64,000 nucleotides of DNA from Thermoplasmata archaeon (lineage in GTDB: Archaea > Thermoplasmatota > Thermoplasmata > GCA-020350865), in NCBI GenBank assembly GCA_020348445.1, contig CP070751.1, positions 4,392,901 to 4,456,900 on the forward strand, given 5' to 3'. Positions within the stretch are counted from its first letter, which is position 1. Each line of letters starts with the position of its first letter. The notes under the pieces were generated by a model that searched no databases, was not told the DNA's origin, and saw only the letters and a list, made by a program, of their open reading frames with translations. Of this stretch, positions 12,701-26,602 are shown one piece after another. The translations under genes and the position numbers were made by a program.

Positions 12701-15208
12701 TACGATGACATCAGGATAAGAAGTAGAGAGGTCAGTGAACTGCACAGGGGAGCCCTCATCCTGGGGTTCGGGGGACCAGGAAAATTCGGCCTGGGGAGCC
12801 AAATCGAGTATCGTTATATTGTGCACACAAATATCTTGGGAGCCGTCATCGTCCGTTACCCTGAGGATCACTATGTAAATTCCATGGTCCATGAATGTGA
12901 CCTGGGGATTTGGTTGATTGCTTGTGCCAACACCTACAAAGGTCCACTCCCACGCAACAATTACATCAGGGTAGGAGGTGGAGAGATCTGTGAATTGCAC
13001 AGGCGCCCCCTCGTCCTGAGGTGAAGGAGACCAAGTGAATTTTGCAGTAGGCCCCAAATCGCGGATAGTGACATTGTGGGAAACAGAACTGGATGAGCCG
13101 TCGTCGTCCCAGACAGTGAGGGTCACCATGTAGATCCCGTTGTCCATGAACGTGAATTGAGGATGTTGCAAGTTGCTTGTTCCAAGACCTGCAAAATCCC
13201 AAAGCCAGGCAGTTATATTGCCTGTATCTGAGGTGGAAATATCAGTGAACTGGACAGGCTTTCCCTCATCCTGGGGCTCGGGAGTCCAAATAAAATCTGC
13301 ATCAGGTGCCAAATCCAGTATGGTAACGTTGTGAACGCATGAATCCATGGAGCCGTCATCGTCTATCACCGTTAGCATCACAGGATAAATGCCGTCATTT
13401 GGGAACGTGAACTCTGGATTCTGTTTATTTGATGTGTCCAATCCTGCAAAATTCCATTTCCATCCAACGATATCATCTGGATCTGAGGTGGACAGGTCAG
13501 TGAACTGCACAGGTGATCCCTCGACCTGCGGCTTGGGAGACCAGTCAAATTCTGCATTGGGTCCCAAATCAAGGACAGTGACCCTGAAGTGCTCCTGCGC
13601 AACTCCACTGTCATCATCCTTCACAGTTACTGTGACATCGTATATTCCATTGGAAGCATATACATGCTTCACAACATGTGTAATGTCCATTGGATTTATA
13701 TCAGGACTTGGATATGGATCAGGTGAAACACCGTTGTTGTAGAATATCTTGACTGTATCAGATGTTGTATCACCCCAATCCCATGTGAAAGTGAGATCAT
13801 CGCTTCCTGGGTCCTGAGCCCGGGCTTGGAATGTGCCGATTTCTCCTTCATATAAATGATCAAGGACCGTTACATCTGGGATATGATCTATTTTCGGTGG
13901 AATATTTTGGACCTTTACTATGGCAATTGCAGAGCCACTTGCACCGTAGGAGTCAGTTACAGTTAGTTTGACCTTAAAATTCCCATTATCACCATAATCT
14001 TGATAAATTATGGGTCCGTATTCATCTGTTATTCCATCATCATCCAGGTCCCATTCATAACTTATTATGTAATCGCCATAATCTGTATCTGGATCATATG
14101 AGGCAGAGCCGTTTAGGCAGGCAGTTTCGTTATTTTCCAATATGTTAACATCAGGAACAATTGCCACAGGTGGTCTGTTCACCAAAATCGTTTCCAAAAG
14201 CGGCTTTTCTGATTCTGCATCATTTTTGCCGTTGCCGTTTTTATCAACAAAGGTTCTTGGTAAAAAGATTCTAAGATCGGGATTCAGTACCGGGGTAATT
14301 AATTTGTAACCTATGTACTCAGTTGTGTAATCTGTGGGTTGACTGTCCGGGGTTTCAACAGCGGCGTCGATCTTGTTTAATTTCCATTTTATAGTTATAG
14401 AACCGTCGGAGTTGTTTGTAATGGATAAGGGCGTGTGGGTGAAGCTTGAAGGATCGTAAGAAAACCCAGAGGGGATCTTGTCTGTGACCATGATATTTTC
14501 TGCATCTTCAAATCCGATATTTGTCACCTCAAGAGTGATATTTACCTCATCGCCTATATTGTCAATCTCCTCCCAGAGAGGTAATTTACCCACAACCACT
14601 GTGGGATTTTCTCGCAGATGGTCCCAGATATCGTCCTGTGTGTCTTCGGTGTAATTCTCCATCATGGACCAGAACACATATGGAAATATCTCTCCAGATA
14701 GCGAGATTTCGATGCCATCGTGTGTGTATTCCGAGTCCTCGGTGCACCACCAGGGAGGGGGATCTTCGAGATGCATTGCAACATATTCGCCGTATTTGTA
14801 TGTAAAGGAGCTTCCCGGTGCGATTCTATGGGTTATGGTCAATACTCCGTCCTGGGTTTCGTCGTCAATATCTGGGTCATCCTCATCCATATATGCGGGA
14901 CTCGGGCTCATTAGCAAAATATATTCATCAATTATTATTGTTTTAGATCCATAGTTATAAACTGTATAGGTTCCTCCGTAAGCTCCAAAATTCGTCTGTC
15001 TAACAATGGCATCTCCTTTGGCCCAGGCCTCCCACAGTCTTATATCAGAGGAAAGGGTCCTTATCTGTCCCTCCAAAGGACTGTCAATAGGTGAATCATC
15101 AGAATCCATACTGCTTTGTTCTTCCAACTCAAAAATACCCACCGTCATGGGATTCATGGGGACTACAATCAAGGTCAAAACCAATCCTATCGTCATTATT
15201 TGCCTCAT
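9701..15208 (-). CDS. 1835-aa multi-PKD-domain surface protein with a DUF11-like domain
   Basis: More than a dozen PKD-type units ending (V/T)VTLTVxDDD(G/N), in two classes (DPGSDDLTFTWxWGDG..YYNNG.SPDPYPSP and F.WSP.PQ.EG.PVQFTDxS); ITLEVTNIGFEDAENIMVTDKIPSGF DUF11-like motif. Confidence 0.85.
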   Translation of the reverse strand: MRQIMTIGLVLTLIVVPMNPMTVGIFELEEQSSMDSDDSPIDSPLEGQIRTLSSDIRLWEAWAKGDAIVRQTNFGAYGGTYTVYNYGSKTIIIDEYILLMSPSPAYMDEDDPDIDDETQDGVLTITHRIAPGSSFTYKYGEYVAMHLEDPPPWWCTEDSEYTHDGIEISLSGEIFPYVFWSMMENYTEDTQDDIWDHLRENPTVVVGKLPLWEEIDNIGDEVNITLEVTNIGFEDAENIMVTDKIPSGFSYDPSSFTHTPLSITNNSDGSITIKWKLNKIDAAVETPDSQPTDYTTEYIGYKLITPVLNPDLRIFLPRTFVDKNGNGKNDAESEKPLLETILVNRPPVAIVPDVNILENNETACLNGSASYDPDTDYGDYIISYEWDLDDDGITDEYGPIIYQDYGDNGNFKVKLTVTDSYGASGSAIAIVKVQNIPPKIDHIPDVTVLDHLYEGEIGTFQARAQDPGSDDLTFTWDWGDTTSDTVKIFYNNGVSPDPYPSPDINPMDITHVVKHVYASNGIYDVTVTVKDDDSGVAQEHFRVTVLDLGPNAEFDWSPKPQVEGSPVQFTDLSTSDPDDIVGWKWNFAGLDTSNKQNPEFTFPNDGIYPVMLTVIDDDGSMDSCVHNVTILDLAPDADFIWTPEPQDEGKPVQFTDISTSDTGNITAWLWDFAGLGTSNLQHPQFTFMDNGIYMVTLTVWDDDGSSSSVSHNVTIRDLGPTAKFTWSPSPQDEGAPVQFTDLSTSYPDVIVAWEWTFVGVGTSNQPNPQVTFMDHGIYIVILRVTDDDGSQDICVHNITILDLAPQAEFSWSPEPQDEGSPVQFTDLSTSYPDVIVSWLWDFGGLDSSDKEDPQFIFMDDGTYVVTLTVTDDDGSTHSKSHNVTIRDLAPTANFQWSPEPQSEGSPVQFTDNSTSYPDLIVGWMWDFGDGGSSTLTDPIHIYGDNDVYLVTLTVTDDDGSTDSISYNVTILNVPPTIDAGQNRTVYEGDTVSISCPFFDPGWLDTHIATIAWGDGTSDTGVVNEINGSGTVSGDHVYGDDGVFIVTVTVTDDDGDSGSDVFLVMVNNVAPSIVSLNNHVVDENTPITLNGHVTDPGSDDLTFTWNWGDGTSDTVIIYYNNGVSPDPYPSPDVNPMDVIDSQTHTYGDNGVFIVTLTVKDDDNGTTVVTTNITVNNVAPQIEPVDDEETDENQAVSLSATAYDPGSDDLTFTWDWGDGTSDTVTVYYNNGVSPDPPLSPDINPMNITDFVSHTYGDNGVFTVTLTVKDDDGDITVITIDITVHNVAPEIDPLSTYETDENVGVTLSGTASDPGSDDLTFTWDWGDGTSDTITIYYNNGISPDPYPSPEINPITVTDTVSHTYGDNGVFTVTLTVEDDDNGVTQRTTTVTVNNVAPTIDHLLPYETDENLAVSLSGHATDPGSDDLTFTWSWGDGTSDTITIYYNNGVSPDPYPSPEINPRDITDVVTHTYGDNGVFTVTLTVEDDDNGVMVVTTNVTVYNVAPSLSVDRSIKVVDEGSPITLEGHSTDPGSDDLTFTWNWGYGASDTNTIYYNNGASPDPYPSPEINPMDIVDSATHTYGDNGNFDVLLTVVDDDGGEISIIINVIVRNVAPTVKIEAFMYVDLTLRIAGEKYHSVGIHLLEDGKDILAAMITRRPGNPDEQTGTIVGARIDVTKTYTVLIDYLPNDPRVNGNVWGANPVWVDIGFEDGDSKRLHHTFNVRKSYWNSDHWNHIDPWEVELNPHLLGHNITLEGIATDPGSDDLTFTWDFGDGATAGPTTYYNNGVSPDPYPSPDINPMNVTDTCVHAYTTAGTYTITLVVEDDDGAVTVTTLEIGL

Positions 15209-15450: not shown

Positions 15451-16845
15451 TCAGGTTCCGGGCCAGAACTGTTCAATGTACTTCTTGTCGATTCTTGTCA
15501 ACTGCTCCTTTGGTAATGTGGACATAAGCTCCCATCCAAGGCCCAGCGTCTCCTCTATGGACCTGTCCTCGTCCTCTGTCTGGGCAATGAATCTTCTTTC
15601 AAAGATGTCGGCGAACTCCAAAAACTTCCTGTCCCTTGGAGTCAAAGCCTCCTCTCCAACAACAGCAACAAGCTCCCTGAGATCAACTCCCTCTGCATAG
15701 GCTGCGTACAACTGATTTGAGACATCGTCGTGGTCCTCCCTTGTCCTGCCCTTTCCAATTCCCTGTTTCATAAGCCTGGACAAACATGGCAGCACATCAA
15801 CAGGCGGTCTTATACCCCTTCTGTGAAAGTCCCTGGAAAGCACTATCTGTCCCTCGGTAATATATCCAGTCAAATCAGGTATCGGATGCGTGATGTCATC
15901 ATCAGGCATTGTTAAAATTGGAATCTGGGTGATTGTGCCCTCTTTCCCAAATATCCTGCCCGCCCTTTCATAGATACTTGCCAAATCTGTATACATGTAT
16001 CCAGGATAGCCTCTTCTTCCTGGAACCTCTTCCCTTGCAGCAGCGATCTCCCTAAGAGCCTCGCAGTAGTTTGTCATGTCAGTTAAGATCACGAGAACGT
16101 GCATGTCATTGTCAAAGGCAAGAAACTCTGCGGCAGTCAAGGCCATCCTTGGAATGATGATTCTCTCGATTGCGGGATCGTCTGCCAAATTCAAGAACAA
16201 AACTGCACGCTCTAAAGCACCTGTTCTCTCAAAGTCATTTATAAAATAATTTGATTCCTCTGCAGTGATTCCCATTGCACAGAACACGACAGCGAACTCC
16301 TCCTCCTGCCCCTTTACCTTTGCCTGTCTTGCAATCTGTGCCGCAAGGCTGTTGTGGGGTAAACCAGAGGCTGAAAATATAGGTAACTTCTGTCCACGAA
16401 CCAGGGTGTTCAATCCATCTATAGTTGAAATTCCACTCTCGATAAACTCCCTTGGATACTCCCTTGCAGAGGGATTAATTGGCTGGCCATTTATGTCCCT
16501 TCTTTCAACAGGTATGATTTCAGGGCCGCCGTCTATGGGCCTTCCAGTTCCGTCAAAGACCCTTCCCAGCATATCAGTTGATACAGGAAGCTTCATTGTC
16601 TCTCCTATGAACCGTACAGAGGTGCCCTTGGTATCAAGGCCTTTTGTGCCCTCGAACACCTGGACAACTGCTGTTTCAGTCCTTGCCTCGAGAACCTGCC
16701 CCAGTCTTTCTGTACCATCTGAAGCCCGAATCCGCACCACCTCTCCAAAGGCCACACCTCGGACCTTCTCAACAACCATAAGGGGACCTGCGATTTCAGC
16801 CACAGTGGTGTACTCCTTGCTTTTTGATGTGTCGAGCATTGCCAT
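15451..16845 (-). CDS. atpB: A/V-type ATP synthase subunit B
   Basis: [37 protein letters not shown]; start moved to ATG 16845 behind SD GGAGGTG. Confidence 0.97.
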
Positions 16846-16846
16846 T

Positions 16847-18619
16847 TCAGTCACCTCCCAAAGAGGCGATCTCATTTTTTATATTCTCTTCGATCTTGGT
16901 AAAAGGGCCTTCAAAATTATCATTTGGTACGGTTGCCATCCTGCCTATGCTCTCCCTGGTCTTCATGCCCTTCAACTTCTCCATCTGAACACCAGTTTCA
17001 ACGGCATCATCCAGAAGATCGTAGTAATTCAGCATTATGCGCATCATCTCGTACTGCTTCTTTGCAGGACAGTAAGTGTCGATATCGTGGAATGCGTTCT
17101 GCTGTAAAAAGTCCTCTCTAATCGCCCTTGCACCTTCCAATACAGCCTGTTCCTTTGGAGGCAGGGCATCAGGTCCAACAAGCTGGATGATCTCCTGTAG
17201 CTCGTTCTCCTTTTGAAGCAGCTGCATTGACTTTCTTCTCATATTGAGCCATTCCCCGCCAATATCCTTTTGCCACCAGTCTTTTACATGATCAACATAA
17301 AGTGAATAGGATCGCAACCAATTGATTGACGGGAAGTGCCTTCTGTCGGCGAGGTCAGCATCCAAGGCCCAGAACACCTTCACGATGCGAAGGGTATTTT
17401 GGGTAACTGGCTCTGAAAAGTCACCGCCAGGTGGAGACACGGCACCAACCACTGTAATTGAACCGAGCTTCTCCTCAGAACCTATGACCTCAACTATTCC
17501 TGCCCTCTCATAGAACTGGGCCAGTCTAGACGCAAGATATGCGGGGTAGCCCTCCTCTCCAGGCATCTCCTCCAACCTTCCCGAAATCTCCCTCATTGCC
17601 TCTGCCCATCTTGAGGTGGAGTCAGCCATCAGGGCCACATCATAACCCATATCTCTGTAATACTCAGCTAAAGTAATACCAGTGTAAACACTTGCCTCCC
17701 GAGCAGCCACTGGCATGTTGCTTGTATTGGCGATGAGCACTGTTCTGTTCATAAGAGGCTCTCCGGTTCTGGGGTCCTCCAGTTTGGGAAATTCCCTGAG
17801 AACGTCAGTCATCTCGTTGCCTCTTTCCCCGCAGCCAACATACACGATTATATCAGCATCGCACCATTTTGCAAGCTGATGCTGCATCACTGTTTTCCCT
17901 GTTCCAAAACCACCTGGGATTGCTGCAGTTCCTCCTTTGGATATTGGAAAGAACGCATCGAAGATCCTCTGGCCAGTTATCAGGGGGAATTTGGGGTCAA
18001 GCTTCTTCTTAAAATGCCTTTCCATACGCACAGGCCACCTCTGGAGCATGGCAATCTCCTTTACTCCAGATGAGGTGTTGATCTTGGCAATCACATCCTC
18101 GACCTTGTAATCACCTTCAGCTGCTATCTCAGCCACCTCTCCCTCAACTCCCCAGGGCACCATGATCCTATGCTCCACAACAGGTGTTTCAGGCACTATG
18201 CCCAAGATATCACCGGGCTGGACCTTTGTGCCCGGGGCAACAGATGGTGTGAAATGCCACATCTTCTCTCTATTTACAGCTGGTATCTCAACCCCTCTTG
18301 CTATGAAATCACCTGTCGCCTCCTTGATCAGAGGCAGGGGTCTTTGGATACCGTCGTAGATCTGGCCCATGAGCCCAGGCGCGAGCTCAACTGAAAGAGG
18401 GATTCCTGTTCTATCCACGGGCTCCCCTGGTACCAAGCCAGTTGTCTCCTCATACACCTGGACTGTCACAGTGTCCTCCTTTAGCTCGATGATCTCGCCG
18501 ATAAGGCGCTCCTTTCCCACCCTGACAACATCGTACATCTTGGCTCCGCGCATCCTGTCAGCAACCACCACCGGTCCTGCGATCTTTATGATGGTTCCAA
18601 TCTCTTCAACTTCATCCAT
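16847..18619 (-). CDS. atpA: A/V-type ATP synthase catalytic subunit A (no intein)
   Basis: P-loop [37 protein letters not shown]. Confidence 0.98.
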
Positions 18620-18655
18620 ATCTACACCACCTTTCTGATTTTATTATCTATCTTT

Positions 18656-18985
18656 CTATTTGACATCGCTTGCCTCGATATCCAGGCCAACAGCCCTTTT
18701 TATGAGAATGCGGATGGGATCCTCCTTTTCCATGGGTCCTCTTTTATCCTGAACCTCTACAATCAGGGGATACAAGGGCCTCTCCTCCCTAAATCTTTGT
18801 ATGTCCTCTCTAAGGGAATGGGCGTACCTTTCAGTGATTATCAGAACACCCATATCGGGGTCTTGCATCACCTCTGCCAGGGCGGTCTTCGCCTCCTCTC
18901 TATTGCCAACTGCGTATAAATCCTTTATCCCGGTAAGTGCGAAACCCATTGTGGTATCCTTGTCCGCGATGACAGAGATCTTCAA
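18656..18985 (-). CDS. atpF: A/V-type ATP synthase subunit F
   Basis: MKISVIADKDTTMGFALTGI...IKRAVG; operon position. Confidence 0.95.
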   Translation of the reverse strand: MKISVIADKDTTMGFALTGIKDLYAVGNREEAKTALAEVMQDPDMGVLIITERYAHSLREDIQRFREERPLYPLIVEVQDKRGPMEKEDPIRILIKRAVGLDIEASDVK

Positions 18986-20154
18986 ATTCCTTCCTCCATA
19001 ATGAGCATGGGCATGATTCTCTCTGGCGATAATCCCTCATGCATTCCCCGAAGCACGGCCTTGATGTTCCTAACCTCGAATTCCTTTGCAACTATGAACT
19101 TTATCGTGGGCCCGGCTGCTATGAGGGCGCTGCTTGATATCTCCTGTGCTTCTGTAAGAAGCAGTTTATCAAGGGCCATCTCAAAGGAGTAGATGCTCCT
19201 TGACACGTTATAATCCTGCATGGCGTTTCTCATGATCTCCAGATACGGAGTGCCCTCCAGTTCTGTTATCATCTCAGGGATGCCCTTTACCTCGATTAAC
19301 TGGCGCAGCTTCCATAAAGCCAGAATCCTGCCACCTTCAACAAGGAAGCGCTCTGTTGTTTGTGGATCAAGACCCTGCTGCTTCGACCTTATTATATGCT
19401 TCAGGTTCGTTATGTCTGCATGCTTGCCTATAAAGAGTGTTACAGTCTCAGAAACAGAGGTATCAACCCTTGTTATCGACAACCGCAGCTCCTTGGAGAA
19501 GAACTGATCAAGTGCGAGATCCAATGCAACGATGTCGTCCTTGTACTCGCCTGCGGTTTTGCTCAATGTGTCACCGAACCTTGTGGATTTAACTGCACTT
19601 ATAACCTCATCAACACTGCCTGCTTCGAGCATGTTCTCTATTATCTCTTCATCTATTTCCTTAACTGGAACGAGCCTCATCTTCAAGTCTTCGAATGACA
19701 TACCGTTTTTCTTGGCACGTAATGCTTTTTTGACCTGCATGGCATCGTATTTGATGAGATAGGCCTCCAAAAACGGCCTTAGGCTCTGAGGATCAGAGGC
19801 GAGCACCTTCTTCAAGAATTCCACATGGGTCAGCTCAATCAGTCTCTCGGCCTCGTCCAATCCCACTTTCTCGATGTTGGGGGGCAGCTTGTACCCCTCC
19901 TTTGATATCTCCAATGCCGCCTCTTGGGAGCTTGACAACTCCAGAAGCTCGGTGAGCCTCTTTTTCGTGACAAAGGGATTTCCCATTGCCCGAAGCCTGG
20001 CATTGGGATACGAGAAGCTGGCAATCGTGATTAGGATATTGAAGTAGCTCATAAGAAGAATGATGGTTATAAGAACAGCGACACCAATAACCAAGAGAGC
20101 AAATGCCAGGGTATCTTTCAATACCAGCTCTTCAATTATTTCCATAAGACCCAA
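18982..20154 (-). CDS. atpC: A/V-type ATP synthase subunit C (d-like) with an N-terminal hydrophobic helix
   Basis: YPNARLRAM, DITNLK..IR, KEFEVRNIKAV; TTG start behind SD GGAGGAG. Confidence 0.93.
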   Translation of the reverse strand: MGLMEIIEELVLKDTLAFALLVIGVAVLITIILLMSYFNILITIASFSYPNARLRAMGNPFVTKKRLTELLELSSSQEAALEISKEGYKLPPNIEKVGLDEAERLIELTHVEFLKKVLASDPQSLRPFLEAYLIKYDAMQVKKALRAKKNGMSFEDLKMRLVPVKEIDEEIIENMLEAGSVDEVISAVKSTRFGDTLSKTAGEYKDDIVALDLALDQFFSKELRLSITRVDTSVSETVTLFIGKHADITNLKHIIRSKQQGLDPQTTERFLVEGGRILALWKLRQLIEVKGIPEMITELEGTPYLEIMRNAMQDYNVSRSIYSFEMALDKLLLTEAQEISSSALIAAGPTIKFIVAKEFEVRNIKAVLRGMHEGLSPERIMPMLIMEEGI

Positions 20155-20155
20155 T

Positions 20156-20764
20156 TTACTCCTCCTTTACCTTGGCTTGTTTTGCTTGAAACAGTATCTC
20201 GGCAACCTCCCTTCGAAGGTCGTTTCTGAGCCTTTCGAGCACACCCTCGAATGTGGCGTCTATTCGTGATGTACCGTCCTTTGCCAAGATCACCAAACCA
20301 CCGATATTATCAAAGCCTTGAGAGGACACCTTTATTCTCGGGTCCACTGCAGATGCTAATCTCTGAACGAGCTGCTGGTCTTTTGCATTGCACAGCACAT
20401 CAAATTCGCTTCCCATTTCTGTTGCAGCACTTTTTAGGGCTGCGCTTATGTAGCGTTCTGTGGAATTTAAATCCACCTCCTTAAGGCGTGCTTCTGCAAG
20501 GGCGAAGGCCTTTGAGATAACGTCTTCCTTTGCATTGAGCATCATCTTTCTGGCTTCAAGTTTCCCCTCGGACGTTGCCCGGCTTCTCTGTATCTTTATG
20601 ACCTTTTCGGTCTCGAGTTCCATGGCCCTTTTCTCCTTTTCAAGCTCTGATTTGGCCTGACTCAATATCTTTTTTGCTTCTTTCTTGGCCTCATCTATCT
20701 GCTGCTTGGCTTTTTGCGATGCGTCCTTTTTAATTCTGCTGGTGATGTTCTCAACTGCCCCCAT
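20156..20764 (-). CDS. atpE: A/V-type ATP synthase subunit E
   Basis: N-terminal coiled coil; IGGLVI...RIDATFE; operon position. Confidence 0.93.
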   Translation of the reverse strand: MGAVENITSRIKKDASQKAKQQIDEAKKEAKKILSQAKSELEKEKRAMELETEKVIKIQRSRATSEGKLEARKMMLNAKEDVISKAFALAEARLKEVDLNSTERYISAALKSAATEMGSEFDVLCNAKDQQLVQRLASAVDPRIKVSSQGFDNIGGLVILAKDGTSRIDATFEGVLERLRNDLRREVAEILFQAKQAKVKEE

Positions 20765-20769
20765 GAAGT

Positions 20770-22632
20770 TCAGCCCCCCATCAATTTGATACCGAACATG
20801 ATCAGTATGGCGATAAGCAATCCAAATATCGCGAATGTCTCTGACATGACTGAGAATATGATGCTCTTCCCAAAGGCCTGGGGATTTCTGGCTGTGGCAC
20901 CGATGCCCGCACTGGCTGTTATACCTTGACCTATGGCAGACAGTCCCGATATTCCTATGGCAAGACCTGCTCCCAAAGCGGCAAGTCCCATGCCTTCAGT
21001 TGCCGTGAATTCCCCAGTGAACATGCCTGTGAATGCCATAAGAAGTATGGCAATGAGCAAACCGTAGATGGCCTGGGTCTCTGGGAGAACAGAGAACACG
21101 ATACCTTTGCCGAACATCTTGGGATCCTCTGCCGTGGCTCCGACACCGCCGCTTGCAGCTATGCCCTGACCTATTGCAGACAAACCCGCGATTCCTATTG
21201 ATAGACCGCAGGCAATGGCCACAAGACCGATTCCAATGCCTTGGTCAACTGCCTCGTTAAGTGATACAATATCCCCTGCAAACAGCCCTCCAAAGGCCAT
21301 AAGAAGTATGGCAACGAGCAGCCCGTATATAGCTTGTGTCTCTGGGAGAACAGAGAAGACAATGCCCTTTCCAAACATCTTGGGATCCTCTGCCGTGGCC
21401 CCGATACCTCCTGACGCTGCAATGCCCTGACCTATTGCAGACAAACCTGCAATTCCAATTGAAAGACCGCAGCCAATTGCAATGAGTCCCACAGCAACAG
21501 AGACCACAGAAAAGTCCTGGGCAAACATGCCTGTGAAGGCCATAAGAAGTATAGCGATGAGCAGTCCATAGATGGCCTGGGTCTCGGGAAGAACAGAGAA
21601 CACAATGCCCTTGCCAAACATCTTGGGATCAGATGCAGTTGCACCTACACCCCCGCTTGCCGCAATGCCCTGGCCTATGGCAGAAAGTCCTGCCACACCA
21701 ATTGAAAGACCGCAGCCAATGGCCACAAGTCCCACTGCTGGAACATTTCTTACTGCCTCAAAGTCTCCCCCGAGAAGGCCAGAGAAGTTCATAAGAAGTA
21801 TGGCCACCAGAAGGCCGTATATGGCCTGGGTCTCAGGTAAAACCGAGAATACTATGCCCTTGCCCAGCATCTTCGGGTCGTTTGCAGTGGCAGATATGCC
21901 ACTTCCAGCTGCAATTCCCTGGCCTATTGCTGAGAGACCAGCTAGGCCCACTGCAAGACCGCAGCCTATTGCAACAAGACCGATTGTGATGGGGATGTCC
22001 CCTCCTGTGCCCCCTAGAAGTCCGCTGTACATGAGTATCATGATGGCAATCAACAGCCCGTAGATGGCCTGGGTCTGGGGCAGGGCCTGGAAGACCAGGG
22101 ATTTTCCGAACATTTCGGGCTTCTCAGCCACTGTGCCGGCCCCTGTAGCACCAGTTATACCAACTCCTATCCCGGCACCCATACCTGCAATTCCAATGGC
22201 AAGGCCTGCTCCGATGGCAGCCAAATATGCCCCTGTGCTCAATTCATCCTTGCCTCTGACCTTGATTGTCACTGTGTCCCTGTCAGAAAGACCGTTTTCG
22301 TCAGTAACCTTGAATTTCACCTCGTAGGTGCCGGCTTCATCATAAGTATGGGTGACATTGCTTGAGGTTTGATTTATTTCATATACTCCATCCCCGTTGA
22401 AATCCCATTTATAATAGAGTATCGTGAAATTGGTTGTGGCAGAGCCAGTTACTGTGAATTCCTCCCCCTCCTGAACCTCCATATCCCCTCCAGCATGGGC
22501 AATGGGTCCATCTTGAGCACTAGCAATGGGTATGACCAGTGATAGTATCAGCACAAACGCACTCAGAAATAGCACGAGGCCAAGGTATTTTCTTTGCCTT
22601 CCCAAACCTGTATTTTCTTTATTTCGGCTCAT
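20770..22632 (-). CDS. atpK: ATP synthase proteolipid (subunit c/K): signal peptide + PKD domain + six c-hairpins
   Basis: Helix-2 motifs PQTQAIYG, four PETQAIYG and SETFAIFG; PKD-like aa about 42-126 (AHAGGD..., YKWDFNGDG, HTYDEAGTYEVKFKVTD); ATGA overlap with the atpI stop. Confidence 0.95.
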   Translation of the reverse strand: MSRNKENTGLGRQRKYLGLVLFLSAFVLILSLVIPIASAQDGPIAHAGGDMEVQEGEEFTVTGSATTNFTILYYKWDFNGDGVYEINQTSSNVTHTYDEAGTYEVKFKVTDENGLSDRDTVTIKVRGKDELSTGAYLAAIGAGLAIGIAGMGAGIGVGITGATGAGTVAEKPEMFGKSLVFQALPQTQAIYGLLIAIMILMYSGLLGGTGGDIPITIGLVAIGCGLAVGLAGLSAIGQGIAAGSGISATANDPKMLGKGIVFSVLPETQAIYGLLVAILLMNFSGLLGGDFEAVRNVPAVGLVAIGCGLSIGVAGLSAIGQGIAASGGVGATASDPKMFGKGIVFSVLPETQAIYGLLIAILLMAFTGMFAQDFSVVSVAVGLIAIGCGLSIGIAGLSAIGQGIAASGGIGATAEDPKMFGKGIVFSVLPETQAIYGLLVAILLMAFGGLFAGDIVSLNEAVDQGIGIGLVAIACGLSIGIAGLSAIGQGIAASGGVGATAEDPKMFGKGIVFSVLPETQAIYGLLIAILLMAFTGMFTGEFTATEGMGLAALGAGLAIGISGLSAIGQGITASAGIGATARNPQAFGKSIIFSVMSETFAIFGLLIAILIMFGIKLMGG

Positions 22633-24911
22633 TTCGGAACCTCCACATATCCCTTTTCGGTCTTCTCAATAACTGTGTGTTCCCTTTCTGCAACAAAGGG
22701 TGAGAACTTCTTGCCTCCACCAGAATAGAATTGACCAAAGAATTCCACATAGTGTAATCTTAATGCATGAATGAATCCGCCAAGGGCCTGAAGCACGGCA
22801 TTTATTATATGGCCAAATATGAATATTATCAGCAAGATCAAGGCAATGGATACAGCAATTGCCCCAATTGCTCCAAATATACCCATGAGAAGGAGCAGAA
22901 TTGATATTCCTTTAATGGCGTTATTTTGCTTTTGAAAGCCCACGGCAATAAGTACTATGCCCACAAGGAAAAGCGCGGCGCAAACAGGCGCCGTAATAGC
23001 AGAAAAAACATCCTTTATGAGGGTCGCGATGATATTTATGGTCATTGCGATTCCAGCTGTTGCAAGTCCAAGGGCAAGTATCCTGGCATAGGAGAGCCAG
23101 TTCCCTATAAAACCTGTGAGGTCAAAGAATCCCAAAGGACCTTTTCTCTTTCTCTTTCCCTCGGGGGATTCCTCGCCAAATTGGAGGAAAACAAGAATCA
23201 AACCGATGATACCGCAGATGTAAGCGGGGATTTTAATGAGCATTGGAAAAGTGAACCAGCCAAAGAATCCACCGAAAACCACAACACCAGCATACTGCAA
23301 AAGGAACCAGGAAACCTGGCTGTAAAGAATATCCCCATATGCCTTTCTTCTTGCATTTTGCCACACTGCCAATATCAATCCCATATTCAGGTGTATGAGC
23401 CCGATGATCAGCGCAAGGACCAGGAGGGGTATGGGATTGTTCATGGAATCCAGCACTATGATGTGATTGGCTCCAATGCCATTGTATGTGACACCCCCGA
23501 TCTCACCAGAATACAGCGCTGGGGTCAGGGGATTGTCCGAAGTGAGGGGCCCCAGATATGAGCCTTGTATTATCCCGAAAATCACGCCCGAGAATCCTAT
23601 CCAAGCCAGTATGACACCCATATCGTACATGCTCTTGCTTACTTTTCCCTGGCCCCTGTAAAGCAGTAACCCTGTCAGAAGCACCAGGGCACCATAGACT
23701 GCATCACCCAGCATTAATCCAAAGAATATCACGAATATGGGACCTAGAATCAGTGTTGGATCAACTTCATGATGGTATGGAAGCGCGAACATCTCGGTGA
23801 GCATCTCAAAGGGCTTTGCCCATCTGGGATTTCGTCTGTATATGGGTATTTCCTCTGAATTTTGCGGATCATTTGAGTAAAGAAAGGACAAACCATCTGT
23901 TTCTTTGTCCACTACCCTTTCCAGTTCTTCTAAGTGTCTTTCAGGGGTCCAACCAGTAACCACGCTGGTCTCCTTTGTCCTTCCAAATTTTGTTTGAGCC
24001 TCTCCCCTGGCCTTGAATATACCGATTTCCTCTCTTATGATGATGAGATCTTTAAGATGTTTCTTTCTAAGTTCTATGAGTTCTTCCCAAAGGGCCTTTC
24101 TTTTTTCTGTGATTTCCTTTGTTCTCTTTTGGATTTCGTCAAGGGCTTCCTGGGGATTTCCTTTGTAATCCTGAAGTGAAAACGATGAAAATACACCTTT
24201 AAGGGAGCTCTCCAAGGCATCTTTTTCATCTATATGGGCAGCAACCACAGCACTGTAGAGCTTCTTTTCGATCTGGTGTGTAAATATCAATGAATCGCGG
24301 ACCTTGCTCACCGAGCTACTGAGCCTTTGCTCGTCTGTTGTTGTTCCCGCCTTCACGATGAGGTATTTGCTTACTCCGAGATATTCCAGCCTTATATCAA
24401 GGGGAGCCAGCATGGAGATTTGCTTTTCATGCTCTGCCAAGGTGGCCCTTTCCTCTGAAATTTCCTCGAGCTTACGTTCGATCTCCGTGATATTTGTTTC
24501 AAGTGCAAATAAAAGCTCCTGCGCATTTTTAATTACCTCGTGAATGCTTTTGGGTTTGACGGTGTATTTGGGAGGAAGCCCTGGGGACAAGAATTCCTTT
24601 ATGGTCTCTCCAAGACCAATTTCTCCCCCTTCCTCTGCCTTTTCGAGAACCTCTATCAACTTGTTGAGCTGTAATTCCAAATCTCCGCATTGTGATGCGA
24701 TTTTATGGGCCTTGGATTGCGAAAGAAGTTTGGCAAAATCCCTTCCCGATTTACCCACATCCACAATTTCGATTAGGCCTGATTCATGAAGACCGTCAAC
24801 GAGTCTTTCGACATAATCATCATGTACTATGATGGATACCTCTTTCATTCTTTCTGGGTAAAGCAACGGTACTCTCCCTCCAATCCTCAAAGAAGGTTTA
24901 GGATCCAACAA
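22629..24911 (-). CDS. atpI: A/V-type ATP synthase subunit I (a)
   Basis: MFALPYHHEVDPT, FGLMLGDAVYG, essential Arg in SYARILAL, HALRLHYVEFF. Confidence 0.96.
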   Translation of the reverse strand: MLDPKPSLRIGGRVPLLYPERMKEVSIIVHDDYVERLVDGLHESGLIEIVDVGKSGRDFAKLLSQSKAHKIASQCGDLELQLNKLIEVLEKAEEGGEIGLGETIKEFLSPGLPPKYTVKPKSIHEVIKNAQELLFALETNITEIERKLEEISEERATLAEHEKQISMLAPLDIRLEYLGVSKYLIVKAGTTTDEQRLSSSVSKVRDSLIFTHQIEKKLYSAVVAAHIDEKDALESSLKGVFSSFSLQDYKGNPQEALDEIQKRTKEITEKRKALWEELIELRKKHLKDLIIIREEIGIFKARGEAQTKFGRTKETSVVTGWTPERHLEELERVVDKETDGLSFLYSNDPQNSEEIPIYRRNPRWAKPFEMLTEMFALPYHHEVDPTLILGPIFVIFFGLMLGDAVYGALVLLTGLLLYRGQGKVSKSMYDMGVILAWIGFSGVIFGIIQGSYLGPLTSDNPLTPALYSGEIGGVTYNGIGANHIIVLDSMNNPIPLLVLALIIGLIHLNMGLILAVWQNARRKAYGDILYSQVSWFLLQYAGVVVFGGFFGWFTFPMLIKIPAYICGIIGLILVFLQFGEESPEGKRKRKGPLGFFDLTGFIGNWLSYARILALGLATAGIAMTINIIATLIKDVFSAITAPVCAALFLVGIVLIAVGFQKQNNAIKGISILLLLMGIFGAIGAIAVSIALILLIIFIFGHIINAVLQALGGFIHALRLHYVEFFGQFYSGGGKKFSPFVAEREHTVIEKTEKGYVEVPK

Positions 24912-25212
24912 TTCTCGTGACTATATGTGAAACAGCTGATTCGATTCGTGTCGAACCATCGGTCTTGATATTCTCGGCCTCGGATTTACCCTGTTTTTGA
25001 ATGTTCTCGGCTTCTATTTTTATCTGCTTTTCTGCATCCTCTAGCTTCGCCTTCATCTCGGATTTGTACCTGGATATTTCCTGCTTATGTGTGGTTTCCC
25101 CTTGGGCCTTGGCACTTTTGATTATCTTATCAGCTTCCTTTTCTGCGTTTGCTATGATGTTCAAGGCCTCCTCTTCGGATTTTTTTACTGCCTCTATTTC
25201 CTTTTCAGCCAT
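24898..25212 (-). CDS. atpH: A/V-type ATP synthase subunit H (G-like stalk)
   Basis: IEAVKKSEEEA..IIANAEKEA alanine/charge-rich helix; first gene of the operon. Confidence 0.88.
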   Translation of the reverse strand: MAEKEIEAVKKSEEEALNIIANAEKEADKIIKSAKAQGETTHKQEISRYKSEMKAKLEDAEKQIKIEAENIQKQGKSEAENIKTDGSTRIESAVSHIVTRIVGS

Positions 25213-25374: not shown

Positions 25375-25734
25375 TTACAATGCTGTTGCAAGATCCCCTG
25401 CTGCCTTCTTGATTTTTGAAGCCAAGGATTCAAAATTATCCTTTGTATTTGTTACAACAACAAGCAGACCCTTGTTACCCGCACTCTCGATAACTATCCT
25501 GGATCTATCCAATTCCACCAAAATGTTCTCAAGCTCTCCCTTAAGTTCGGATATGGCGGTTTCAGCAGAACCCAATAGAATGGCTGACATGGCCACAAAC
25601 GTTTCAAGATGAACTCCATCTGGAGCCTGACCTGAAATGTGCATACCGCTTCTCGAAACCACGACAGAACTCTCAATCTCTGAGCTGCCATTTAGCTCTC
25701 CTAAAATGTCGTTCACAAGCGCGTTATCAACCAT
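25375..25734 (-). CDS. Roadblock/LC7 domain protein
   Basis: IESSVVVSRSGMHI, ETFVAMSAILLGSAE, ILVELDRSRIVI pattern; 119 aa. Confidence 0.9.
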   Translation of the reverse strand: MVDNALVNDILGELNGSSEIESSVVVSRSGMHISGQAPDGVHLETFVAMSAILLGSAETAISELKGELENILVELDRSRIVIESAGNKGLLVVVTNTKDNFESLASKIKKAAGDLATAL

Positions 25735-25978: not shown

Positions 25979-26602
25979 TTACTTGACATTCTTTTTGTAC
26001 CACTCACAAAGATCAGATATTGGGCAAACCTCACACTTGGGATTTATTGGCCTGCATATGGTCTGGCCGAACCTCACGAACATATGGTTTATATCCAACC
26101 AATACTTCCTTTTAAGGATATTCCTGAGTTCTGATTCAGTTTCCTCTGGAGTTTTCGTTTTCACGAGACCTAATCTATTCGAGATTCTATGCACATGGGT
26201 ATCCACGGGAATGGCAGGTATTCCAAAACCAAAGACCAGCACGCAGTTGGCTGTTTTTCTACCCACTGATGGCAGCTGCATGAGCGATTCGAAGTCGTCT
26301 GGAACCTCACCATCGAACCTTTTTAGGAGGATTTCGCTGACCTCCTTGATTTTTCTCGCCTTCACCCGATAAAAACCAGCTGGCTTTATCAACCTCTCTA
26401 TTTTCTTCACATCAGCCTTAGCCAGCTCCTTTATCGAGGGATATACCGAAAGCAGTCTTTGGGATGCGAAATCAGTTTGCTCATCCCTTGTCCTCTGGGA
26501 GATTATCGTGTATATAAGAACCTCAAATGGATCCCTTGGCTCAGAATAAACGTCTTCGGGAAAGTGTTTTTTGAGCCTGCCAAAGAGTTTATCAATATTC
26601 AT
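25979..26602 (-). CDS. nth: Endonuclease III (HhH-GPD, 4Fe-4S)
   Basis: [16 protein letters not shown]6-C-X2-C-X5-C ([17 protein letters not shown]). Confidence 0.95.

What the first reader, a model, noticed from the sequence alone, without database searches (positions are those of the whole stretch)
20770..22632. ATP synthase rotor subunit c fused to an exported PKD domain and expanded to six hairpins with five glutamates
Seen: a 620-aa AtpK with a signal-peptide-like aa 1-39 (…IASA|QD), a PKD-like domain at aa about 42-126, and six c-hairpins. Hairpin 1 has Q186 in place of the carboxylate. Hairpins 2-6 carry E267, E350, E431, E518 and E598, each preceded by a helix-1 Gln (SAIGQG); hairpins 2-5 have ET..IY, while hairpin 6 has ETFAIF. 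Hairpins 2/4 (LLVAI) and 3/5 (LLIAI…AFTGMF) alternate, which suggests a recent duplication of a two-hairpin unit. The ATG overlaps the atpI stop (ATGA), so the extension belongs to this gene. Known: archaeal c subunits occur with 1, 2, 3 (Methanocaldococcus jannaschii) or 13 (Methanopyrus kandleri) hairpins, and Q…ET…Y is the Na+-site signature. I am not aware of a six-hairpin form or of a PKD fusion. Inference: a Na+-coupled ring of 2 protomers (12 hairpins, 10 sites, about 3.3 ions/ATP) or 3 protomers (15 sites, 5 ions/ATP), with an Ig-like domain on the outside face of a rotating ring acting as a lumen plug, assembly chaperone or surface tether.
Basis: partly seen in the sequence, partly recalled or inferred. 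Interest (0 to 1): 0.88.

Follow-up and report, generated by a model that had tools for sequence, protein, structure and literature searches.

The report
ATP synthase rotor with outside domain
The rotor-ring gene of this archaeon's ATP synthase really encodes an export signal, a small antibody-like (PKD) domain and six fused rotor hairpins with five sodium-type sites; the design is common in uncultured and one cultured Thermoplasmata but I found no paper that describes it.

Summary
The gene lies on the minus strand at 20770-22632. It encodes a 620-aa AtpK with a signal-like N-terminus, a PKD domain (aa 42-125) and six c hairpins, inside an H-I-K-E-C-F-A-B operon.

It is not a misassembly. The repeats are only 60-85% identical as DNA, the genome is a single contig, and many independent assemblies carry the same gene.

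It is not unique. About 57 of 401 sampled genomes of the class have the fusion, with 4, 6 or 12 hairpins. Cultured Aciduliprofundum boonei has it (Aboo_1266). Cultured Methanomicrobiales have six-hairpin subunits without the PKD domain. This scan has already found the same design on other DNA in at least 10 genomes. No searchable paper describes it.

All five sites are complete sodium-type sites, because each site borrows T, Q and Y from the preceding hairpin. Hairpin 6 (ETF..F) and hairpin 1 (no Glu) form the seam between protomers.

Relatives whose single chain is exactly two such six-hairpin units in tandem, plus a dimer model that closes into a ring, favour two protomers: 12 hairpins, 10 sites, about 3.3 ions per ATP.

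The PKD domain is joined to an inner-ring helix, so it should sit at the outer mouth of the ring and turn with it. Its function is not known.

The parts
20770..22632 (-). atpK: rotor subunit K/c, 620 aa, made of signal peptide, PKD domain and six hairpins
   Evidence: ORF and translation. Pfam PKD_4 plus six ATP-synt_C stretches. AF2 model with pLDDT 83.7 and pTM 0.76.
22516..22632 (-). aa 1-39: signal-peptide-like N-terminus (basic stretch, about 20-residue hydrophobic core, ASA|QD). The ATG overlaps the atpI stop.
   Evidence: Sequence. The same kind of N-terminus occurs in all relatives that have the extension. Cleavage is not tested.
22255..22509 (-). aa 42-126: PKD (Ig-like beta-sandwich) domain with three N-x-S/T sequons (N68, N87, N92)
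   Evidence: Pfam. Eight strands in the AF2 model. Foldseek matches to ColH/ColG PKD domains, TM 0.81-0.85. Sequon density.
22009..22230 (-). Hairpin 1 (aa 135-208). It has no site of its own: Q186 replaces Glu and there is no helix-1 Gln. It keeps T187, Q188 and Y191 as donors to site 2.
21766..21984 (-). Hairpin 2 (aa 217-289): Q238, E267, T268, Q269, Y272
21517..21735 (-). Hairpin 3 (aa 300-372): Q321, E350, T351, Q352, Y355
21274..21492 (-). Hairpin 4 (aa 381-453): Q402, E431, T432, Q433, Y436
21013..21231 (-). Hairpin 5 (aa 468-540): Q489, E518, T519, Q520, Y523
20773..20991 (-). Hairpin 6 (aa 548-620): Q569 and E598 form its own site. The donor positions are degenerate (T599, F600, F603). 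This is the seam hairpin that abuts hairpin 1 of the next protomer.
22629..24911 (-). atpI (stator subunit a/I), 760 aa. Its stop overlaps the atpK start.
   Evidence: Pfam V_ATPase_I, E 3.6e-23. Overlap.
24898..25212 (-). Probable atpH (peripheral stalk subunit), 104 aa
   Evidence: Weak V-ATPase_G_2 match, E 0.0048, below the cut-off. An ORF of the same size sits at the same position in L029 and L091.
15451..20764 (-). atpE (20156-20764), atpC (18982-20154), atpF (18656-18985), atpA (16847-18619) and atpB (15451-16875)
   Evidence: Pfam matches, all above cut-off

Best explanation
This is the only rotor (c/K) subunit of the organism's A-type ATP synthase/ATPase.

Biogenesis and topology. The chain is made with an N-terminal export signal. 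The signal puts a small, probably glycosylated PKD domain on the outside of the cell. Twelve membrane helices (six hairpins) follow.

Ion sites. Hairpins 2-6 each hold a complete sodium-type site. A site is built from the hairpin's own helix-1 Gln and helix-2 Glu, plus Thr, Gln and Tyr from helix 2 of the preceding hairpin. Hairpin 1 has no site and only donates ligands to site 2. Hairpin 6 has lost the donor residues that nobody needs. Hairpin 6 therefore abuts hairpin 1 of the next protomer.

Ring size. Two protomers most likely close into a 12-hairpin ring with 10 sites, which gives about 3.3 Na+ per ATP.

Position of the PKD domain. It is tied by about 7 residues to helix 1 of hairpin 1, which is an inner-ring helix. 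The two PKD domains should therefore sit at the outer mouth of the ring's central hole, close to the rotation axis. There they turn with the rotor without sweeping over the stator. They would act as a cap or assembly aid.

Status of each step. Shown: the gene, its domains, the motifs and their conservation. Inferred: export, Na+ specificity, ring size, the position of the PKD domain and what it does.
For: Gene, domains and operon:
- ORF, Pfam matches, operon order and ATGA overlap.
- It is the only ATP-synt_C gene in a one-contig genome.

Not an assembly error:
- The repeats are only 60-85% identical as DNA.
- Two congeners carry the same architecture at 82-87% identity, and so does another MAG with a 4.2-Mb contig (P0021).

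Conservation:
- Junction-spanning matches occur in about 57 of 401 sampled genomes of the class, in six families, with ORFs of about 434-474, 603-667 and 1118-1190 aa.
- The I-K-E-C-F-A operon, with I-K overlap, is the same in a 12-hairpin relative and a 4-hairpin relative.
- A. boonei T469 Aboo_1266 has the same build. Its N-domain matches the PKD profile at 95.7% probability, E 1e-8.

Site geometry:
- Among 55 unique residue patterns from 199 homologues, 24 of 24 internal hairpins without a site follow a hairpin that has lost its donor residues. Only 6 of 286 hairpins with an intact site do. In the opposite direction the count is 4 of 61.
- This is the E. hirae NtpK arrangement, and it is the Na+ rule E[STQ][STQ]xxY written out in bioRxiv 10.64898/2026.10.01.756066.
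- Foldseek matches NtpK (2bl2_A) with TM 0.89.

Ring size:
- L029 and L031 carry one PKD-like N-domain followed by 12 hairpins. Their site pattern is exactly two six-hairpin units in tandem. L034 reads 6+3+3, and 4-hairpin forms also exist.
- An AF2 model of the 1120-aa L029 chain has pLDDT 85.9 and pTM 0.84.
- Thermus V/A-ATPase has a c12 ring whose outer helices face subunit a (PMC6812961).
- Dimer model of aa 130-620, two copies: score 0.68, best of 3 controls 0.00. That mark was reached by 20 of 30 proteins solved as pairs of one chain and by 1 of 23 solved as single chains. The runs agree in at least 97% of contacts, and the partner's pLDDT is at least 86. In each copy both hairpin 1 and hairpin 6 touch the other copy, so the ring is closed. 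c-rings have been solved, so this pass may reflect likeness to known structures.

Export of the PKD domain:
- A signal-like N-terminus is present in all relatives with the extension.
- N-x-S/T sequons occur at 3.34 per 100 aa in the N-domains against 0.12 in the hairpins.
- The N-terminus of a c hairpin lies on the outer side of the membrane (established for NtpK and F-type c subunits).

Selection on the PKD domain: pN is 0.24-0.33 against pS 0.57-0.82.
Against: Na+ specificity is read from a motif only.

A 3-protomer ring could not be modelled because of the size limit. A 24-hairpin ring also fits the 4/6/12 arithmetic.

Relatives in other phyla have 5, 7, 8, 9, 10 or 13 hairpins, so ring size is not universal.

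Model coordinates could not be inspected. The position of the PKD domain relative to the axis is deduced from the short linker and from helix order, not measured.

The hydrophobic core of the signal is long (about 20 residues) and could stay in the membrane as an anchor.

The 12-hairpin forms need only one PKD domain per ring, so pairing of PKD domains cannot be essential.

The PKD domain evolves about ten times faster than the hairpins, so any specific partner or function is unclear.
Confidence: 0.6

Rival explanations
1. Same protein, but three protomers (18 hairpins, 15 sites, 5 ions per ATP) or four protomers (24 hairpins, 20 sites) form the ring.
For: Larger rings exist: E. hirae K10 has 20 hairpins (established knowledge; the 10-subunit ring is cited). 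The trimer could not be modelled, so it was never compared with the dimer. A ring of 24 fits the 4/6/12 series as well as 12 does.
Against: A 12-hairpin single chain cannot build an 18-hairpin ring, yet it replaces the six-hairpin gene in the same operon in sister lineages. The 6+6 tandem pattern of L029 and L031 reads as a fused dimer. The dimer model closes on itself with both seams formed (score 0.68 against controls 0.00; this may reflect likeness to known structures). The 13-hairpin Methanopyrus chain was deduced to be a monomeric rotor (Lolkema and Boekema 2003, cited in PMC2359735).
Confidence: 0.2
2. The N-terminal hydrophobic segment is not cleaved. It stays as a 13th membrane helix, perhaps inside the ring lumen, with the PKD domain looping between it and hairpin 1. 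This would resemble the extra first helix of eukaryotic subunit c'' or the lumen helices of Voa1/Ac45.
For: The hydrophobic core is about 20 residues long, enough to span a membrane. AF2 draws residues 6-37 as one helix. Eukaryotic Vo rings do hold extra helices (composition in PMC10352029; their location is from my own knowledge of the cryo-EM structures).
Against: A small-x-small motif (ASA) followed by Q sits at the end of the core, here and in a congener. The helix has low confidence, pLDDT 43-70. The segment is poorly conserved, 31-49% identity within the genus.
Confidence: 0.25
3. The signal plus PKD domain is only a biogenesis device. It forces the N-out insertion of a 12-helix chain and is trimmed or functionless in the mature enzyme.
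For: The PKD domain evolves fast, about 48-57% identity within the genus against 92-100% for the hairpins. Pfam no longer recognises the domain in several lineages. Six-hairpin subunits of Methanomicrobiales work without it.
Against: The fold-defining residues and the domain length are kept across six families of the class. pN is well below pS. Dense sequons suggest a lasting, glycosylated surface domain.
Confidence: 0.15
4. Assembly artefact: a chimeric join of a PKD gene to atpK, or a collapsed or expanded repeat array.
For: The gene is internally repetitive, and the genome holds many PKD proteins.
Against: The repeats are only 60-85% identical as DNA. The genome is one contig. The same 6-hairpin plus PKD gene appears in dozens of independent assemblies from several sources and in the finished genome of A. 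boonei.
Confidence: 0.02

Closest known systems
Aciduliprofundum boonei T469 Aboo_1266 (ADD09074.1, WP_008083817.1), annotated 'ATP synthase subunit C', 606 aa
   Same: It has a signal-like N-terminus, a beta-rich N-domain of about 100 aa, and six hairpins whose first lacks Glu and whose last is ETF..F. It is 51% identical over residues 13-616. The N-domain is homologous to the PKD domain here (hhalign 95.7%).
   Different: Pfam does not recognise its N-domain. It is a cultured thermoacidophile. I found no paper on this protein.
Six-hairpin subunit K of Methanomicrobiales (Methanolinea mesophila WP_209673029.1, Methanocalculus, Methanofollis fontis; 480-484 aa)
   Same: The residue pattern is identical: GV-QTQ..Y, then four times SQ-ETQ..Y, then SQ-ETF..F. 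Identity is 62-65% over the hairpins. Hairpins 1 and 6 are positional orthologues of those here.
   Different: They have no signal peptide and no PKD domain; the chain starts about 8 residues before hairpin 1.
Multi-hairpin archaeal c subunits described in the literature: Methanocaldococcus jannaschii (3 hairpins, 2 sites) and Methanopyrus kandleri (13 hairpins, deduced monomeric rotor)
   Same: Several hairpins are fused in one chain, they carry sodium-type motifs, and in M. jannaschii one site is lost (PMC2359735; PMC9171764).
   Different: Reviews list 1, 2, 3 or 13 hairpins, not 4, 6 or 12. None has an outside domain. All 13 Methanopyrus hairpins keep Glu.
Enterococcus hirae NtpK (PDB 2BL2), rotor of the V-type Na+-ATPase
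   Same: It is the best structural match, TM 0.89 and 34% identity over a two-hairpin unit. The site geometry is the same: Glu and Gln from one hairpin, Thr and Gln from the preceding one.
   Different: It has two hairpins with one site, ten copies per ring and no ectodomain.
Eukaryotic V-ATPase ring accessories Ac45/ATP6AP1 (yeast Voa1) and ATP6AP2
   Same: This is a likeness in function only. Glycosylated luminal/outer domains and extra helices ride on the c-ring and are linked to its assembly (composition in PMC10352029; location from my own knowledge of the cryo-EM structures).
   Different: They are separate proteins, not fused to c. No homology was found: none of them is among the Foldseek matches listed.

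Membership tests
ATP-synt_C (PF00137) / A-type subunit K | Profile match above the curated cut-off | tested here: met
   353.9 bits against a cut-off of 24, six stretches
ATP-synt_C (PF00137) / A-type subunit K | Helical hairpin with a conserved carboxylate in the middle of helix 2 | tested here: met
   Glu is present in 5 of 6 hairpins and Gln in hairpin 1. The AF2 model shows paired helices.
ATP-synt_C (PF00137) / A-type subunit K | Gene placed between atpI and atpE of an A-type operon | tested here: met
ATP-synt_C (PF00137) / A-type subunit K | Fold like a solved K/c subunit | tested here: met
   2bl2_A with TM 0.89, and yeast and human c subunits with TM 0.8-0.87
ATP-synt_C (PF00137) / A-type subunit K | Assembles into a closed ring | tested here: inconclusive
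   The dimer model closes: score 0.68 against a best control of 0.00. The mark was reached by 20 of 30 proteins solved as pairs and 1 of 23 solved as single chains. This is only a model and may reflect likeness to solved rings.
PKD domain (PF18911 / PF00801) | Profile match above the cut-off | tested here: met
   PKD_4 63.2 bits (cut-off 27); PKD 41.9 bits (cut-off 23.5)
PKD domain (PF18911 / PF00801) | Beta-sandwich fold like solved PKD domains | tested here: met
   4u6t_A, 2y72_A and 4tn9_A with TM 0.81-0.85 and 31-35% identity
Na+-binding c subunits | Helix-1 Gln/Glu plus helix-2 E[STQ][STQ]xxY (rule in bioRxiv 10.64898/2026.10.01.756066) | tested here: met
   Five sites are complete when the T, Q and Y donors are taken from the preceding hairpin
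Na+-binding c subunits | Na+-dependent activity, or Na+ protection from DCCD | not testable with these tools
   This needs biochemistry.
Sec-type signal peptide | n-, h- and c-regions with a small-x-small cleavage site | tested here: inconclusive
   The sequence fits, relatives share it and sequon enrichment fits export. No predictor was available and there are no protein data. The h-region is long.
Eukaryotic Ac45/ATP6AP1-Voa1 ring accessories | Sequence or fold homology of the outer domain | tested here: not met
   No such chain is among the Foldseek matches listed. The likeness is in function only.

The most novel reading that the evidence does not exclude
The PKD domain is a functional rotor cap. 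It would be an archaeal, covalently attached counterpart of the eukaryotic Ac45/Voa1 ring accessories, needed to assemble or seal a 12-hairpin ring. On this reading, the natural series on one 12-hairpin frame is a gearbox that sets the ion/ATP ratio at 3.0, 3.3 or 3.7. The series is three chains of 4 hairpins (9 sites), two chains of 6 (10 sites), and single chains of 12 (9, 10 or 11 sites).
Probability: 0.3. Interest if true: 0.85.

Novelty: new variant of a known kind. Interest (0 to 1): 0.68.

Why it matters
Rotor rings of rotary ATPases are thought of as bare bundles of membrane helices. Reviews list archaeal c subunits with 1, 2, 3 or 13 hairpins.

Here a folded, probably glycosylated domain is welded to the spinning ring on the outside of the cell. 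It is conserved across a large part of the Thermoplasmata.

The related 4-, 6- and 12-hairpin genes occupy the same place in the same operon. This gives a rare way, from sequence alone, to constrain ring size and the ion/ATP ratio. It also offers natural variants for testing how the number of sites tunes the enzyme.

A cultured carrier, A. boonei, makes cryo-EM and biochemistry feasible.

Tried and rejected
- Plus-strand reading of the given coordinates: it is full of stops, because the gene is on the minus strand.
- The repeat finder with a minus-strand reference gave an error and was repeated on the plus strand.
- The look-up of encoding contigs has no record of the exact protein.
- Misassembly or chimera: rejected.
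- 'Recent duplication of a two-hairpin unit': rejected as worded. The alternation exists, but it is old and blurred.
- Surface tether: rejected on mechanical grounds (inference only).
- Literature: eight searches and five papers read. None describes a six-hairpin subunit, a PKD fusion or Aboo_1266. The library excludes most subscription journals, so absence is not proven.
- A three-copy ring and a full-length dimer that includes the PKD domain exceed the 1000-residue limit of complex prediction and were not run.
I therefore could not verify ring closure of the 1120-aa model, nor measure where the PKD domain sits. Only pTM 0.84 is known.
- dN/dS values are rough, because synonymous sites are near saturation.
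- The Pfam hits DNA_polI_exo1 (and PF05927 in the precomputed table) on the hairpin repeats have no stretch that passes on its own. I regard them as spurious.
Full report
**1. The observation**

- The ORF at 20770-22632 is open only on the minus strand. It gives a 620-aa protein, P0001.
- Pfam finds a PKD domain at aa 42-125 (PKD_4, E 2.4e-17). It also finds six ATP-synt_C stretches (E 4.7e-108).
  - Q186, E267, E350, E431, E518 and E598.
  - The motif SAIGQG in helix 1 of hairpins 2-6.
  - PETQAIY in hairpins 2-5, SETFAIF in hairpin 6 and PQTQAIY in hairpin 1.
- The ATG overlaps the stop of the upstream gene as ATGA, and a GGAGG lies just upstream.
- The neighbours on the same strand are a probable atpH, then atpI, then this gene, then atpE, atpC, atpF, atpA and atpB.
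- atpD is not in the operon. It lies about 4.2 Mb away on the same contig.
- The genome is a single contig of 5.16 Mb and has no other c-subunit gene.

**2. It is not an artefact**

- The six repeats are only 60-85% identical as DNA. Collapse or expansion during assembly is therefore unlikely.
- Two congeners (G003 and G002, i.e. L025 and L026) carry the same gene at 87% and 82-83% identity over its full length.
- About twenty further proteins of 79-90% identity have the same Pfam architecture. They come from JGI, NCBI and ENA assemblies. One comes from a 4.23-Mb contig and is named 'PKD domain-containing protein [Thermoplasmata archaeon]'.

**3. How widespread it is**

- The organism is a member of the Thermoplasmata. 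Its nearest named records are uncultured Thermoplasmata MAGs.
- I searched 401 genomes of its class with a query that spans the PKD-to-hairpin-1 junction.
  - Matches covering both sides occur in about 57 genomes of six families.
  - The open frames fall into three size groups: about 434-474 aa, 603-667 aa and 1118-1190 aa.
  - These correspond to 4, 6 and 12 hairpins behind a signal-like N-terminus and a beta-rich domain.
- Named carriers include Candidatus Saliniplasma, Candidatus Natronoplasma and DHVE2-group MAGs.
- G017 proved to be cultured Aciduliprofundum boonei T469.
  - Its Aboo_1266 (ADD09074.1, 606 aa, 'ATP synthase subunit C') has six hairpins and an N-domain.
  - Pfam does not recognise that N-domain.
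  - A profile-profile comparison with the PKD-type N-domains gives 95.7% probability, E 1e-8.
- Six-hairpin subunits without any extension occur in cultured Methanomicrobiales: Methanolinea mesophila, Methanocalculus, Methanofollis fontis and Methanomicrobium.
- Chains of 4-13 hairpins occur in several other archaeal phyla.
- The 4- and 12-hairpin genes sit in the same H-I-K-E-C-F-A operon, with the same I-K overlap.
- So both the six-hairpin form and the PKD fusion are common in sequence databases.
- The literature does not reflect this.
  - Reviews still list 1, 2, 3 or 13 hairpins (PMC9171764; PMC2359735; bioRxiv 10.64898/2026.10.01.756066).
  - None of my searches found a paper on the six-hairpin form, the fusion or Aboo_1266.
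- Earlier agents of this scan reached the same conclusion on other genomes. I derived the results above before reading their notes.

**4. Site geometry and the seam**

- I aligned every hairpin of 199 homologues to one profile and read six positions.
- One pattern recurs almost everywhere.
  - The first hairpin lacks the helix-1 Gln and has Gln for Glu, but keeps T, Q and Y.
  - The middle hairpins have S..Q and ETQ..Y.
  - The last hairpin keeps Q and E but reads ETF/Y..F/L.
- The same pairing is seen at internal positions.
  - 24 of 24 internal hairpins without a site follow a hairpin whose T/Q/Y donors are degenerate.
  - Only 6 of 286 hairpins with an intact site do.
  - In the opposite direction the association vanishes (4 of 61).
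  - These counts are on 55 unique patterns. The sequences are related, so they are not independent events.
- A site is therefore built from a hairpin's own Gln and Glu plus T, Q and Y of the preceding hairpin. This is the arrangement in E. hirae NtpK, which is also the best structural match (TM 0.89). The rule appears in section 2.3 of the 2026 preprint.
- It follows that all five sites here are complete sodium-type sites.
- The F600 and F603 of hairpin 6 are the unused donors for the missing site of hairpin 1. Hairpin 6 must therefore lie next to a hairpin 1 in the ring.

**5. Ring size**

- L029 and L031 are Thermoplasmata MAGs from soda-lake sediments. Each encodes one PKD-like N-domain followed by 12 hairpins. 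Their pattern is exactly the six-hairpin pattern written twice, internal seam included.
- L034 reads 6+3+3. L048 has 12 hairpins with 11 sites. Other lineages have 4 hairpins.
- If the ring size is the same in these orthologous operons, 12 is the smallest number that fits 4, 6 and 12.
- An 18-hairpin ring made of three protomers is excluded for the 12-hairpin chains.
- The AF2 model of the 1120-aa chain is confident as a whole (pLDDT 85.9, pTM 0.84).
- I also modelled two copies of residues 130-620.
  - The score is 0.68 against a best control of 0.00.
  - That mark was reached by 20 of 30 proteins solved as pairs of one chain and by 1 of 23 solved as single chains.
  - The runs agree in at least 97% of contacts, and the partner's pLDDT is at least 86.
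  - In each copy both hairpin 1 and hairpin 6 touch the other copy, so the two chains form a closed ring with two seams.
  - c-rings have been solved, so this pass may reflect likeness to known structures. It does not exclude larger rings.
- A c12 ring is known for the Thermus V/A-ATPase (PMC6812961).
- Two protomers would give 10 sites per turn, about 3.3 ions per ATP.

**6. The PKD domain**

- The AF2 model folds aa 45-126 as an eight-strand sandwich. It matches solved PKD domains of clostridial collagenases (TM 0.81-0.85) and an archaeal S-layer PKD domain.
- Export is supported by three lines of evidence.
  - Every carrier has a signal-like N-terminus.
  - c hairpins have a known N-out topology.
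  - N-x-S/T sequons are about 28 times denser in the N-domains than in the hairpins, 3.34 against 0.12 per 100 aa.
- Within the genus the domain is 48-57% identical, against 92-100% for the hairpins. Its pN is still well below pS (0.24-0.33 against 0.57-0.82). This is the behaviour of a surface-exposed domain that is nevertheless kept.
- The carboxylate helix (helix 2) must face the stator, so helix 1 is the inner helix.
- Only about 7 residues join the last strand (ending at 126) to helix 1 (starting at 133).
- I therefore infer that the domain sits at the outer mouth of the ring's central hole, near the axis. There it can turn without colliding with subunit I.
- A tether to the cell surface would stall the rotor, so I reject that idea.
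- A cap or assembly role is the most economical guess. It would be analogous to the separate Ac45/Voa1 accessories of eukaryotic V-ATPases (composition in PMC10352029; location from my own knowledge). It remains a guess.

**7. History of the repeats**

- Hairpins 1 and 6 form cross-phylum clades of positional orthologues.
- Hairpins 2-5 cluster by lineage.
- In this genus hairpins 3 and 5 are 93% identical. Hairpin 4 is 89-90% identical to both. Hairpin 2 is 78-81% identical to the others.
- Each hairpin is closer to its counterpart in a congener (93-97%) than to its paralogues.
- The 2/4 and 3/5 alternation is real, and it is clearer in the DHVE2 lineage. It is not recent.

**8. Physiological context (weak inference)**

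- The closed genome has no PF00361-type antiporter subunits and no OAD beta subunit. It does have a membrane pyrophosphatase.
- Two congeners, one of them a single 3.2-Mb contig, have no AtpA, AtpB or AtpK at all.
- The enzyme may therefore be dispensable in this genus. It may run as an ATP-driven Na+ pump in a fermenter.

**9. Verdict**

- The finding is a real, conserved and apparently undescribed variant of the A-type rotor subunit.
- It is not unique to this genome and is not a new kind of machine.
- A folded outer domain fixed to a rotor ring, and the 4/6/12 series, would still surprise specialists. Both can be tested in a cultured organism.

Noticed in passing
G001 (whole genome, 1 contig, 3.2 Mb) and G004, same genus as the window's genome: Neither genome gave any match to ATP-synt_C, ATP-synt_ab or this window's AtpA. 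The window's genome and two other congeners have the full operon. This may be loss of the rotary ATPase within a genus. G004 is fragmented and about 80% complete.
   Followed up: partly
G000:C1:246239-246820 (outside the window); window 9701-15208: atpD (central stalk) is not in the operon and lies about 4.2 Mb away. Downstream of atpB there is instead an 1835-aa ORF on the same strand.
   Followed up: partly
whole genome G000: There is no PF00361 (complex I/Mrp-type antiporter subunit) and no OAD_beta. There is one membrane pyrophosphatase, at G000:C1:675393-677354. This hints at a fermentative organism in which the ATPase may work as a Na+ pump.
   Followed up: partly
L032 (PWFW01000126.1): This contig is labelled 'Halanaerobiaceae bacterium' but carries a Thermoplasmata-type multi-hairpin atpK. 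Ten hairpins are visible and the gene is cut at the contig start. The contig is probably mis-binned.
   Followed up: no
L055 / P0100 (805-817 aa): This is a six-hairpin relative whose PKD domain is interrupted by an acidic insert of about 170 aa made of two similar modules.
   Followed up: no
P0029, P0036, P0008, L054 and others (Methanobacteriota and other archaeal MAGs, some labelled Nanoarchaeota): These 7-13-hairpin chains have internal 'dead' hairpins (SQ-QTQ..Y). Each dead hairpin is preceded by a hairpin that lost its Tyr (ETQ..M, ETH..S). This gives many different site counts on similar frames.
   Followed up: partly
window 25375-25734 and 25979-26602 (minus strand): A Roadblock/LC7 domain protein and an endonuclease III homologue lie just upstream of the ATPase operon.
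   Followed up: no
L029 aa 413-448, L048 aa 454-487: Pfam DNA_polI_exo1 scores 47-52 bits over the whole protein on hairpin repeats, but no single stretch passes. This looks like a false positive caused by summing over repeats. The same family appears in the precomputed annotations of some database entries.
   Followed up: no
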